Part shown: piece by piece, positions 47,868-49,797 of the stretch
Numbering within the stretch: position 1 is the stretch's first letter
Layout: each line of letters begins with the position of its first letter
Source: a virus
Taxonomy: Duplodnaviria > Caudoviricetes
Virus record (IMG/VR): IMGVR_UViG_3300021368_000438
Location: 1-54,566 of that record
Direction: 5' to 3' (one strand)
DNA: 54,566 nucleotides
Position numbers and translations under genes: made by a program
Notes under the pieces: model-generated
What the model was told of the DNA's origin: nothing
Databases searched by the model: none
The model's input: only the letters and a program-made list of their open reading frames with translations

Positions 47868-48311
47868 ATGACGAGTCAGTTAGATCGCATTGAAGCGAAA
47901 CTTGACCATATTTTAATGCAACTTAATACACAGACGACAACACCGATGCCGAACAAAATAGCGTTAATTGAAGAAGCTCTTTCAAATGATGCTGGACACC
48001 TGTTCCAAAACTGGACGGTCAAACAGCATTGTGTTTTGCAAATGATACTGAGGGGCGCAAGCAATGAAGACATTGCCAAGCGGATGAAGGTCACGGTGAA
48101 CACAGCCAAGGTGCATGTGCGTACATTGTTTAGGAAGCTAGACGTGAACACACGCGCCGAGTGTGTGAGTAAGTGTTTGATTGCATTTCGGGAAGTGAGT
48201 GACGATCAGTATATGTTGATGACGAGAGGTCTGCCCAAGGATTGGGACGAAACATACTCTGAGCCTGACCCTCACGATTTATTAATTCACGGAGCAACTA
48301 ATGCCGCTTAA
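47868..48311 (+). CDS. LuxR/GerE-type HTH transcriptional regulator
   Basis: TVKQHCVLQMILRGASNEDIAKRMKVTVNTAKVHVRTLFRKLDV. Confidence 0.9.
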   Translation: MTSQLDRIEAKLDHILMQLNTQTTTPMPNKIALIEEALSNDAGHLFQNWTVKQHCVLQMILRGASNEDIAKRMKVTVNTAKVHVRTLFRKLDVNTRAECVSKCLIAFREVSDDQYMLMTRGLPKDWDETYSEPDPHDLLIHGATNAA

Positions 48312-49590
48312 ACTAAAACTACGGAATGGTGTGTGGCAAGCCGTTGGGACTGTTGTCTGTAAGGACGGTCGCAAGGTGTTTGTGCGTAAGAGCACAGGCC
48401 ACACGTTCCACGAGAAGACGTGGGCAACTAAGAAGTTGTCTGACATTCTCTTGGAGACCGTGCAAAGTGAAGCAAAACGGGAAGATACCACCACCAAGGT
48501 GGTGTCTGACTGCATCCGTCTGTTCTTGAAAAGGCCAGATGGTGTGGGGAAGACTGATGAGATGACGCTTGATCGGTTTGAACGTGTGTTCGGACGTAAG
48601 GAATTGAGCAAGTTGACCAGTCTTGAGGTGAATGATTACCTGACAGGAAAGGGAAACAAAGCCAGTAGTGTGCGTCGGGAGATGTCAACAATCTCTGCGT
48701 GTTTCGGATACGCACGACGCATGGGGATGGATGTGCCAGACATTACGTTGGTCAAGCCAAGTGAAGGAGACGGACGATGTCGATGGTTGGATGTAGATCA
48801 GCGTGACCAGTTGATCGATGCCATGCCAGACGTGAACAGTCGTGACGTGCTGAAGTTCTTGTTCTTTACTGGGGCGAGGTTGGGGGAGTGCTTTAACTTG
48901 AGACGAGAAGATGTCTTGAGTGGTGAGGTGTTGCTGCGAACTCGCAAAGGTAAGGCCAAGAAGTTGAGGACAAGGCGTGTGCCGCTTCATGCTGAGATCA
49001 AAGCGATGGTTGAGGCGAGGGCGGTAGCTACGAACAATTTCGTCTTCAAGTACAACAAGCGTAATACGCGCAGAGGTTCGTCTTCCTACAGTTTGGAGCG
49101 TTGGGAGCGTGATGGTTTCTATGACTACTTCAACGTTGCCAAGGACAAGATTGGGCTAGACGATTTTGTTCCGCATGATTGTCGGCACACGTTTGCCTCG
49201 CATTTGGTGCAAGCTGGCGCAAGCTTGAAGGCGGTGGCTGAGTTGTTGGGACATACAAGTCTGGCGATGGTCATGCGTTACGCGCATCTTGCGCCTTCAC
49301 ACTTGGATGACACCGTAAGTTTGTTGGGTGTCAAAGAGGTGTCTGATTGCACAAATACTACACACGAAGAAGGGGTGGTGCTGCCTGAGAGAATTGAACT
49401 CTCGGCCTCTTCCTTACCAAGGAAGCGCTCTACCACTGAGCTAAGGCAGCTTAATCAAACAATAATTTCAGACGGCATTGATTCTCCGAATGCTAATATA
49501 GACGTAAGCAACGCCGTTGACAGTGAAAAATGCGATGCCCTTACCAAGGGTAAAAGCACACACCCAAAGAGCTATAAGCCAGATAAGTAG
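48301..49590 (+). CDS. int: Tyrosine integrase
   Basis: TGARLGE, HDCRHTFASHL, LLGH and RYAH catalytic motifs. Confidence 0.95.
   Translation: MPLKLKLRNGVWQAVGTVVCKDGRKVFVRKSTGHTFHEKTWATKKLSDILLETVQSEAKREDTTTKVVSDCIRLFLKRPDGVGKTDEMTLDRFERVFGRKELSKLTSLEVNDYLTGKGNKASSVRREMSTISACFGYARRMGMDVPDITLVKPSEGDGRCRWLDVDQRDQLIDAMPDVNSRDVLKFLFFTGARLGECFNLRREDVLSGEVLLRTRKGKAKKLRTRRVPLHAEIKAMVEARAVATNNFVFKYNKRNTRRGSSSYSLERWERDGFYDYFNVAKDKIGLDDFVPHDCRHTFASHLVQAGASLKAVAELLGHTSLAMVMRYAHLAPSHLDDTVSLLGVKEVSDCTNTTHEEGVVLPERIELSASSLPRKRSTTELRQLNQTIISDGIDSPNANIDVSNAVDSEKCDALTKGKSTHPKSYKPDK
49376..49450 (-). tRNA. tRNA-Thr(GGT), complete with CCA; probable attP core
   Basis: GCTGCCT TA GCTC AGTGGTA GAGC G CTTCC TTGGTAA GGAAG AGGCC GAGAG TTCAATT CTCTC AGGCAGC A CCA; all stems pair. 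Confidence 0.97.
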
Positions 49591-49797
49591 TAAGTATTTG
49601 AAGCCTTTAGGGTTATTGTCAAGTATGGCAACTGACAACTTGAGGTGCATGAAATCGTGTGTAATTGCACACTACACTACCGAATGCAGGCATATGGATA
49701 TATACAGTCATAGACAATAATAAACTTGATAACACACGAAAGGTGTGCAAGATATAAGTTTATTCTGCATGACATTTGTCAACAGGGAAACAAGATT

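What the first reader, a model, noticed from the sequence alone, without database searches (positions are those of the whole stretch)
48301..49590. Integrase ORF reads through a complete antisense tRNA-Thr: attP inside int
Seen: the catalytic Tyr is at about 49279; the frame stays open across the whole tRNA (49376-49450) and ends at 49590, with phage genes on both sides. Established: Myxococcus phage Mx8 has attP within int, so integration replaces the C-terminus and lowers activity; SSV1 int is split by its tRNA att. Inference: integration into host tRNA-Thr(GGT) would swap the last ~45-70 aa for host-encoded sequence, leave two full tRNAs, and place int antisense to a tRNA transcript, forming a recombination-coupled switch.
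Basis: partly seen in the sequence, partly recalled or inferred. Interest (0 to 1): 0.8.

Follow-up and report, generated by a model that had tools for sequence, protein, structure and literature searches.

The report
Integrase gene spans tRNA and attP
In this marine phage the integrase gene runs on through a working threonine tRNA gene on the opposite strand and through the short site where the phage probably joins the host chromosome, so integration would split the host tRNA, leave the phage tRNA as its replacement and change the last few residues of the integrase.

Summary
The int ORF is 48301-49590 (429 aa), with Tyr327 at 49279. It reads through a complete antisense tRNA-Thr(GGT) at 49376-49450, and phage genes lie on both sides.

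The window is a CRP-810-type phage. In 20 of 20 relatives that carry this tRNA, a second copy of the anticodon stem-loop lies 12-87 nt beyond it. In the window this is CCCTTACCAAGGG at 49538-49550, codons 413-417. It fits the 13-bp attP core that PCR confirmed for CRP-810. It occurs in 31 of 33 sampled host tRNA-Thr genes and in 0 of 20 phage tRNAs, whose stems carry compensatory changes.

The most likely mechanism is therefore "tRNA-dependent lysogeny": integration splits the host tRNA and the phage tRNA replaces it. Int would lose only its last 12 aa, not 45-70, and one intact tRNA would remain, not two.

The tail appears to be translated. All 10 long-tail sequences form one exclusive clade (support 0.97), tail substitutions show third-codon-position excess (p=0.0006), and only 2.4% of shuffles stay open. 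AlphaFold2 predicts the tail to be disordered, and its function is unknown.

No prophage junction was found for this lineage. This is a new variant of known kinds (Mx8-like attP inside int combined with Fionnbharth-like tRNA replacement).

The parts
47868..48311 (+). LuxR-type HTH regulator gene that overlaps the int start by 11 nt (context only)
   Evidence: ORF. It is 46% identical to the region of CRP-810 gp13 (annotated LuxR family) by tblastn. CRP-810 has the same luxR-int-tRNA order.
48301..49590 (+). Tyrosine integrase ORF of 429 aa, long-tail form
   Evidence: R193, K216, H292, R295, H318 and Y327 are invariant in 25 aligned homologues.
48301..48465 (+). N-terminal domain (aa 1-55): three strands plus a helix, like an arm-type DNA-binding domain
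   Evidence: The AlphaFold2 model gives E4-8, E11-19, E25-35 and H36-55, with pLDDT 77-89 for the five 10-residue blocks. No Pfam hit was found. The resemblance to an arm-binding fold is recalled and was not tested by fold search.
48784..49299 (+). Catalytic domain (aa 162-333); Tyr327 codon at 49279-49281
   Evidence: Pfam PF00589, 94.3 bits. Sequence.
49309..49353 (.). Candidate P-arm Int-binding sites: three GGTGTC within 35 bp, and the repeat GTGTCTGATTGCACA
   Evidence: 3 of the 29 GGTGTC sites in the 54.6-kb window lie at 49309-49343; direct repeat D2, 49339-53 against 49657-71 (87%). The function is inferred.
49376..49450 (-). Complete phage tRNA-Thr(GGT) with anticodon stem CTTCC/GGAAG; proposed replacement for the split host tRNA
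   Evidence: Across 15 phage copies, 13 of 23 pairs show compensatory changes and none is broken.
49451..49537 (+). 87-nt spacer that codes aa 384-413 of the tail
   Evidence: Window against L003: differences by codon position are 7/7/17 and dN/dS is 0.14.
49495..49523 (-). Weak sigma-70-like promoter match upstream of the phage tRNA
   Evidence: CTGTCA-17-TATATT, 9 of 12. Two sites were found against 1.1 expected, so this is not significant.
49538..49550 (.). Proposed attP common core, CCCTTACCAAGGG. It is the antisense copy of the host tRNA-Thr anticodon stem-loop and touches codons 413-417 (ALTKG)
   Evidence: The 13-mer is in 31 of 33 sampled host tRNA-Thr(GGT) genes. It fits the CRP-810 core described in the paper.
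49551..49590 (+). Post-core coding end KSTHPKSYKPDK plus stop; this part would be lost from Int on integration
   Evidence: simulated junctions; motif THPxxYxPDK shared with L003 and L004-6.
49554..49574 (.). Stretch 71% like the antisense 5' half (D-arm) of the tRNA; a likely decayed half-tRNA
   Evidence: family D1, next to D3 (CCTTACCAAGG at 49412 and 49539).
49657..49671 (.). Candidate P'-arm repeat GTGTGTAATTGCACA
   Evidence: D2, I2 and I4. The function is inferred.

Best explanation
The window is the free (attP) form of a CRP-810-type marine phage. Its tyrosine integrase has a tail of about 96 aa, probably translated and predicted to be disordered. The coding sequence of this tail overlaps the whole left side of attP. 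The crossover core is most likely the 13-bp copy of the tRNA-Thr(GGT) anticodon stem-loop at 49538-49550, inside codons 413-417. It is probably not the complete tRNA 87 nt upstream. Integration would cut the host tRNA-Thr(GGT) in its anticodon loop without rebuilding it. The complete phage tRNA has an anticodon stem with compensatory changes that remove the core sequence. After integration it would sit about 90 nt behind the host tRNA's 5' half and promoter and take over the host tRNA's function. This is tRNA-dependent lysogeny. The same event would replace the last 12 aa of Int (KSTHPKSYKPDK) with about 4 host-coded aa (VLYH or VLYP), because the host D-arm read antisense gives an in-frame TGA. 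Shown here: the anatomy, its conservation, the tRNA covariation, the signs of tail coding, and the host core sequence. Shown by others for a relative: integration at a 13-bp core in tRNA-Thr. Inferred: that the window phage uses this core, that its tRNA complements the host loss, and that the tail swap has any effect.
For: [quoted passage not shown] (2) I examined 80 sequences (window, CRP-810 and 78 IMG/VR loci). Twenty carry an antisense full tRNA-Thr(GGT) after int. All 20 have a second TTACCAA site 12-87 nt beyond the tRNA. Nineteen of the 20 read CCCTTACCAA and 13 of the 20 have the exact 13-mer. (3) I took the 33 best tRNA-Thr(GGT) matches from a sample of 401 alphaproteobacterial genomes. 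Thirty-one carry the 13-mer, against 0 of 20 phage tRNAs (Fisher p=1e-12). No host tRNA is identical to the phage tRNA; the best is 69 of 75. (4) The phage tRNAs evolve as real tRNAs: in 15 copies, 13 of 23 pairs have compensatory changes and none is broken. (5) Simulated integration at the core with 7 of 7 host loci gives no tRNA at the far junction and only the phage tRNA at the int-side junction. The resulting Int is 421 aa and ends DALTKGVLY(P/H). (6) The tail appears to be coding. All 10 long-tail loci form one exclusive clade with support 0.971. Spacer plus post-core differences in three independent pairs are 34/27/60 by codon position (p=0.00056). The window-L003 spacer has dN/dS 0.14, against 0.11 for the body. 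A strain variant in run X5 keeps the frame open, and its 3 tail changes are 2 synonymous and 1 D-to-N. (7) Close relatives in the same Int family have classical half-tRNA attP sites that end at the anticodon loop (L008, L011, L014, L031, L033). So the family crosses over at that loop. (8) Protein P0075 ends ...LTKDALYH, while its relative P0069 continues ...LTKDDVTHPKDTKPP. This is the ending predicted for an integrated form.
Against: No prophage junction of this lineage was found. The junction pattern gave 0 hits in IMG/VR and one unrelated contig in JGI metagenomes. The scan of bacterial genomes found no close prophage. In all 4 of the 4 sequencing runs laid, a contig crosses the core in the phage form and none has a loose end there. 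The phage tRNA still shares 11 bp (CCTTACCAAGG) with host tRNAs. One sampled genome (L183) has exactly the phage-type stem CTTCC/GGAAG, so crossover in the tRNA is not excluded. In L003, the nearest relative for which DNA was held, the second site keeps only 10 bp of the core. I did not see Fig. 5A of the CRP-810 paper, so the identity of its 13 bp with this element is my inference. Group 2 long-tail phages show no codon periodicity in the spacer (6/6/6, 2/5/4, 5/3/5). The linker shows none either (14/10/14). Several tail 'motifs' (LTK, THP from GCACAC, GTTGACA) are also conserved as DNA in relatives where they are non-coding. The tail has pLDDT below 50 and no known function.
Confidence: 0.65

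Rival explanations
1. The complete phage tRNA is itself attP. Crossover happens in its anticodon loop, two full hybrid tRNAs result, and the last 45-70 aa of Int are replaced by host-coded sequence.
For: The tRNA shares an 11-bp identity (CCTTACCAAGG) with host tRNA-Thr, and one sampled genome has the same CTTCC/GGAAG stem. Full-length homology would rebuild both tRNAs. Candidate arm repeats flank the tRNA as well as the second site.
Against: The CRP-810 core is reported outside the phage tRNA. The second site is present in 20 of 20 relatives. None of the 20 phage tRNAs has the host 13-mer and none of 401 sampled genomes holds an identical tRNA. With the common host stem, a hybrid would carry a C-A mismatch in the anticodon stem (sequence reasoning). 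The model gives the conserved second site no role.
Confidence: 0.13
2. The tail is a run-on reading frame with no protein function. What is conserved is attP DNA (core, arm sites and tRNA). The working integrase is the first 340 aa or so, as in CRP-810.
For: CRP-810 and 12 other relatives stop 6-30 nt before the tRNA, and CRP-810 integrates. The tail is predicted to be disordered. The LTK, THP and GTTGACA motifs are conserved as DNA where non-coding. The linker and the group 2 spacers show no periodicity. A search with the tail alone finds only 4 close homologues.
Against: The frame is kept open for 88-106 codons past the Tyr in all 10 members of one clade, whose bodies are down to about 40% identical. 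The chance per lineage is about 0.024 times one third. Third-position excess has p=0.00056. Indels are in whole codons. Nineteen of the 120 best database homologues are long forms.
Confidence: 0.15
3. The phage tRNA serves translation or counter-defence during lytic growth and has nothing to do with integration. Its position next to int is an accident of capture.
For: Many phages carry tRNA-Thr genes (one search lists dozens of phage records). The Hatfull paper itself raises counter-defence as a possible selective force.
Against: The tRNA has the same isotype and anticodon as the attB tRNA. It always sits between int and the core in 20 of 20 loci, in the orientation that puts it behind the host promoter. 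Relatives with half-tRNA attP sites carry no full tRNA there.
Confidence: 0.05

Closest known systems
tRNA-dependent lysogeny of mycobacteriophage Fionnbharth and other actinobacteriophages (Guerrero-Bustamante and Hatfull 2024, PMC10865867; abstract and sections 5 and 11 read)
   Same: A tyrosine Int with an arm-type N-domain. attB lies in a host tRNA. The common core is only about 10-13 bp, so the tRNA is not rebuilt. [quoted passage not shown] Close relatives with a long half-tRNA core use the same attB: Boilgate against Fionnbharth there, L031 and L033 against L024-27 here.
   Different: The host is a marine alphaproteobacterium and the tRNA is Thr(GGT). The replacement tRNA lies inside attP between int and the core, and in this clade inside the int ORF on the opposite strand. 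The need for the tRNA was not tested here. Whether mycobacteriophage tRNAs also avoid the core sequence was not examined.
Roseobacter phage CRP-810 integration module (Zhang et al. 2024, PMC11288001; section 9 read in full, other passages by term search)
   Same: Same phage family: 25 of 58 ORFs are shared and the major capsid protein is 84% identical. Same order luxR-int-antisense tRNA-Thr(GGT)-13-bp element. Int is 50.7% identical.
   Different: CRP-810 int stops 8 nt before the tRNA, and its core lies 21 nt beyond the tRNA rather than 87 nt. In the text searched for these terms, the paper does not use the terms 'tRNA-dependent' or 'complement' and does not cite Hatfull. The passages read do not mention int overlap.
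Myxococcus phage Mx8 IntP/IntX (Tojo 1996 and Magrini 1999, seen only as cited in review PMC6070905 and in PMC4383910)
   Same: attP lies within the int coding sequence. Integration creates a new 3' end of int and hence an Int with a different C-terminus.
   Different: The numbers of residues exchanged in Mx8 are recalled, not seen. Here only 12 aa would be exchanged. Here a complete functional tRNA gene is also embedded in the ORF and the host tRNA is not rebuilt. There is no evidence yet that the two Int forms differ in activity.
Fusellovirus SSV1 integrase (cited in PMC4383910 as an integrase that extends across attP)
   Same: The int ORF contains the att site that matches a tRNA gene.
   Different: As recalled, SSV integration splits int into two parts and so disrupts it. 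Here the catalytic body stays whole.
Integration-dependent immunity of mycobacteriophages (mentioned in PMC10865867 discussion)
   Same: Integration restructures a phage gene that spans attP and changes its product's C-terminus.
   Different: There the gene is the repressor. Here it is int.

Membership tests
Tyrosine recombinase / phage integrase (PF00589) | Catalytic R-K-H-R-H/W-Y set and a domain match above the curated cut-off | tested here: met
   94.3 bits against a cut-off of 27.1. R193, K216, H292, R295, H318 and Y327 are invariant in 25 sequences.
Heterobivalent (lambda-like) integrase | [quoted passage not shown] | tested here: inconclusive
   The model shows three strands plus a helix at aa 4-55. 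There is a GGTGTC cluster and a 15-nt repeat on both sides of the core. No Pfam hit was found and there is no binding test.
tRNA-dependent lysogeny | attB overlaps a host tRNA gene | tested here: inconclusive
   This is shown by PCR for the relative CRP-810. For the window it is only inferred, from the 13-mer that is identical to the anticodon stem-loop of 31 of 33 sampled host tRNA-Thr genes.
tRNA-dependent lysogeny | The common core is too short to rebuild the tRNA at either junction | tested here: met
   In 7 of 7 simulated integrations, ARAGORN finds no tRNA at the far junction and only the phage tRNA at the int-side junction. The flanks of the core are not tRNA-like apart from a decayed stretch 71% similar.
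tRNA-dependent lysogeny | [quoted passage not shown] | tested here: met
   tRNA-Thr(GGT). The cloverleaf is kept by covariation across 15 phage copies.
tRNA-dependent lysogeny | The phage tRNA is required for viable lysogens | not testable with these tools
   This needs a phage tRNA knockout.
Mx8-type 'attP within int' | The crossover site lies inside the int coding sequence, so integration changes the 3' end | tested here: inconclusive
   The proposed core touches codons 413-417 and the simulated Int changes from 429 to 421 aa. The crossover point itself is inferred.
Mx8-type 'attP within int' | The two Int forms differ in activity or specificity | not testable with these tools
   This needs recombination assays.
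CRP-810-type phage family | Shared core genes and synteny with CRP-810 | tested here: met
   25 of 58 ORFs of 100 aa or more hit CRP-810. The major capsid protein is 84% identical and the primase-polymerase 68%. The luxR-int-tRNA order is the same.

The most novel reading that the evidence does not exclude
The integrase tail acts as a built-in sensor of integration state. The free phage makes Int with the conserved C-terminal HPKxYxPDK end. Recombination at the core inside codons 413-417 cuts this end off and substitutes four host tRNA-coded residues. The prophage Int would then differ in activity, direction or stability, as in Mx8. This would be coupled in one 215-bp stretch to a protein-coding sequence that shares 75 bases with a functional antisense tRNA gene, and that tRNA has been recoded to escape its own integrase.
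Probability: 0.25. Interest if true: 0.75.

Novelty: new variant of a known kind. Interest (0 to 1): 0.6.

Why it matters
CRP-810-type phages are reported to be globally distributed in the ocean (abstract of PMC11288001). If the reading holds, three things follow. First, tRNA-dependent lysogeny extends from actinobacteriophages to abundant marine phages of Alphaproteobacteria. Second, one Int family would show a full series of attP designs: 3'-half, 5'-half, and mini-core plus whole tRNA. Such a series bears on the question, left open by Hatfull's group, of how the system evolves. Third, it would be a rare case in which a protein-coding frame under selection shares 75 bases with a functional tRNA gene on the other strand. 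The contrast of 0 of 20 against 31 of 33 suggests that replacement tRNAs are selected to lack the integrase's own target. That can be tested directly and is useful when building integration vectors.

Tried and rejected
No integrated form was found by any route.
- A single-protein scan of IMG/VR found no relative. The alignment-based scan worked.
- The scan of bacterial genomes gave only distant integrases (30% or less) plus one 653-bp fragment. So no close prophage was found among the species representatives.
- The junction pattern for the window-type int-side junction gave 0 hits in IMG/VR. It gave one hit in JGI metagenomes, L194, a high-GC contig with a lone tRNA-Thr 5' half and no related int. 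That hit is uninformative.
- A second junction pattern, for the short-spacer clade, gave one IMG/VR hit, L196. It has a different integrase followed by core plus 5' half, and cannot be assigned to this family.
- Laying contigs of 4 runs showed the phage form across the core in 4 of 4 runs and no loose end there. Breaks inside the tRNA come from other organisms' tRNAs, where depth reaches 2000. No integrated form was seen, which is not evidence against integration.

Other steps that led nowhere:
- The search with the tail alone found only the 4 closest homologues.
- The promoter scan gave 2 sites against 1.1 expected, so no claim is made.
- The attP of the long-tail, tRNA-less group L004-6 could not be found by eye.
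- The first tree script got no answer and was rerun with mafft and FastTree.
- I considered that P0075 proves integration and rejected that. Its contig could not be fetched, so a second tRNA copy in a free phage is not excluded.
- Supplementary files and figures of PMC11288001 were not seen. Fig. 5A, Fig. S4 and the tables may show the exact 13 bp and the prophage junctions.
Full report
**What is there.**
The window is an IMG/VR virus record of 54,566 bp, linear and about 95% complete, with 46.8% G+C. It is a CRP-810-type phage. Of its 58 ORFs of 100 aa or more, 25 have tblastn hits in the first 50 kb of Roseobacter phage CRP-810. The major capsid protein is 84% identical and the primase-polymerase 68%.

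The ORF 48301-49590 codes 429 aa. It is a tyrosine integrase. Pfam PF00589 matches aa 162-333 with E=9.6e-27. R193, K216, H292, R295, H318 and Y327 are invariant in 25 homologues.

ARAGORN finds a single tRNA in the window, tRNA-Thr(GGT) at 49376-49450 on the minus strand. The int frame reads straight through it at codons 359-384 and ends 140 nt later. Homologues of CRP-810 genes lie on both sides, and in run X5 a contig spans the whole stretch, so this is the free phage form.

**Is the read-through more than chance?**
Only one of the three frames across the antisense tRNA is open. Only 2.36% of 20,000 shuffles of the other 55 tail codons stay open.

I surveyed 80 sequences: the window, CRP-810 and 78 IMG/VR loci. 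Twenty carry a complete antisense tRNA-Thr(GGT) 83-97 nt after the Tyr codon.
- In 7 of them the int frame reads through it: the window, L003, L009, L013, L029, L032 and L047.
- In 13, CRP-810 included, int stops 6-30 nt before it.
- Three more loci (L004-6) have a tail of the same length but no tRNA.

In a FastTree tree of the integrase bodies, all 10 long-tail sequences form one clade that holds nothing else, with local support 0.971. Bodies within that clade are down to about 40% identical. Among the 120 best database homologues, 19 are long forms of 404-449 aa.

I compared tail codons outside the tRNA and core in three independent pairs. Differences by codon position are 34/27/60 (chi-square p=0.00056). 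For the window against L003, the spacer gives 7/7/17 with dN/dS 0.14 and the post-core gives 2/2/4 with dN/dS 0.11. The body gives 0.11. A strain variant seen in run X5 keeps the frame open. Its three tail changes are two synonymous and one D407N.

Some results point the other way.
- The 15-codon linker shows no periodicity (14/10/14).
- The spacers of the L009/L029/L032 group show none either.
- AlphaFold2 gives pLDDT below 50 for residues 330-429.
- A search with the tail alone finds only the four closest homologues.

I conclude that the tail is translated and weakly to moderately constrained, at least in the window's subgroup. Its function is unknown.

**Where is the crossover?**
[quoted passage not shown] It also reports PCR of attL and attR. 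I did not see its Fig. 5A.

In every one of the 20 loci with the tRNA, a second copy of the anticodon loop (TTACCAA on the int strand) lies 12-87 nt beyond the tRNA. Nineteen of the 20 read CCCTTACCAA and 13 of the 20 have the exact 13-mer CCCTTACCAAGGG. In the window it is at 49538-49550 and codes ALTKG at codons 413-417.

I searched a sample of 401 alphaproteobacterial genomes with the phage tRNA. Of these, 367 had a match. None was identical, and the best was 69 of 75 bases. Of the 33 tRNA-Thr(GGT) genes in the 30 best loci and one other locus, 31 contain the 13-mer in their anticodon stem-loop.

None of the 20 phage tRNAs contains it (Fisher p=1e-12). Their anticodon stems read CTTCC, CATCC, CGTCC, CTCGC, CTGCT, CCTCA, ATTCC and so on, and are always paired.

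Across 15 phage tRNAs, 13 of 23 predicted pairs show compensatory double changes and none is broken. These are therefore functional tRNAs that lack the host target sequence.

Close relatives in the same Int family have classical attP sites.
- Some hold a 3' half of tRNA-Thr ending at the anticodon loop, in either orientation: L008, L011, L014, L031 and L033.
- Some hold a 3' half of tRNA-Ser: L028 and L055.
- Some hold a 5' half of tRNA-Ser or tRNA-Gly: L046 and L060.

So the family recombines at the anticodon loop.

**Consequences.**
I simulated recombination at the 13-mer with seven host loci. In 7 of 7:
- the host site has one tRNA-Thr;
- the int-side junction has only the phage tRNA;
- the far junction has no tRNA;
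- Int becomes 421 aa and ends DALTKGVLY(P/H). The host D-arm read antisense gives an in-frame TGA.

So 12 aa (KSTHPKSYKPDK) are exchanged for four. After integration the phage tRNA would lie about 90 nt behind the host tRNA's 5' half, in the same direction, and hence behind the host promoter. That last step is inferred. The window's own promoter-like match for the tRNA is not significant.

This is the arrangement that Guerrero-Bustamante and Hatfull named tRNA-dependent lysogeny (PMC10865867). It has a core of about 10 bp, no rebuilt tRNA and a phage tRNA of the same isotype. They showed that the phage tRNA is required in Fionnbharth. In the CRP-810 paper, a term search found neither 'tRNA-dependent' nor 'complement' nor 'Hatfull'.

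One database protein, P0075, ends ...LTKDALYH, while its relative P0069 continues ...LTKDDVTHPKDTKPP. That is the ending predicted for an integrated form.

**The rest of attP.**
Three of the window's 29 GGTGTC sites lie within 49309-49343. A 15-nt repeat occurs at 49339-53 and again at 49657-71. These are candidate arm sites and the assignment is inferred.

A GCACA(C/A) motif 5-10 nt right of the core, and GTTGACA to its left, recur in relatives whether or not they are coding. So parts of the tail's apparent protein conservation (LTK, THP) are DNA-level.

The post-core stretch 49554-49574 is 71% like the tRNA's antisense D-arm. This suggests that the second site is a decayed half-tRNA attP, left behind once a whole tRNA was acquired. 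Hatfull's discussion proposes that route.

**What was not found.**
No prophage junction of this lineage turned up in IMG/VR, JGI metagenomes, bacterial species representatives or four sequencing runs. Crossover in the tRNA itself therefore remains possible. The tRNA shares 11 bp with host tRNAs, one sampled genome has the phage-type stem, and L003's second site keeps only 10 bp of the core.

**Verdict.**
attP does overlap int and integration would rewrite its end, as in Mx8 (review PMC6070905, passages; PMC4383910, passage). But the whole tRNA is most likely a replacement gene rather than the att site, the swap is about 12 aa, and only one intact tRNA would remain. This is a new variant that combines two known kinds.

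Noticed in passing
L008, L011, L014, L028, L031, L033, L046, L055, L060 (regions just after int): One integrase family shows at least four attP designs. These are a 3' half of tRNA-Thr in either orientation, a 3' half of tRNA-Ser(GCT), a 5' half of tRNA-Ser or tRNA-Gly(GCC), and a mini-core plus whole tRNA. All end at the anticodon loop.
   Followed up: partly
L004, L005, L006 (int tails): The long-tail integrases that are sister to the window's group keep the spacer motif and the end THPxxYxPDK. They have neither the tRNA nor the LTK core. Their attP and target are unknown.
   Followed up: partly
L007:937-1300: The closest relative of CRP-810 int has no tRNA and no 13-bp element after int. 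It looks like a deletion of the attP middle.
   Followed up: no
P0065, P0058, P0107 (C-termini): Other family members also read through att DNA. P0065 reads through a classical antisense 3' half plus core (...DGIRTHDLSLTKG...). P0058 reads through a whole antisense tRNA-Thr. P0107 reads through another tRNA-like stretch and then GLTK.
   Followed up: no
window 47868-48311: A LuxR-type HTH gene overlaps the int start by 11 nt, as in CRP-810. This suggests translational coupling of the regulator and int.
   Followed up: no
G059, G360, G045, G233, G362: Several alphaproteobacterial genomes carry two tandem tRNA-Thr(GGT) copies separated by gaps of about 30-120 nt. This is a possible source for capture of a whole tRNA next to an att half-site.
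   Followed up: no
L194:993-1045 and L196:5801-5850: There are lone antisense 5' halves of tRNA-Thr that begin at the anticodon loop. One is in a high-GC metagenome contig. The other follows an unrelated integrase in an IMG/VR contig. These are junctions or 5'-half attP sites of other elements at the same loop.
   Followed up: partly
window 49299-49342: An imperfect inverted repeat, ACACTTGGATGACACC / GGTGTCAAAGAGGTGT, lies at the end of the catalytic-domain coding region and overlaps the GGTGTC cluster.
   Followed up: no
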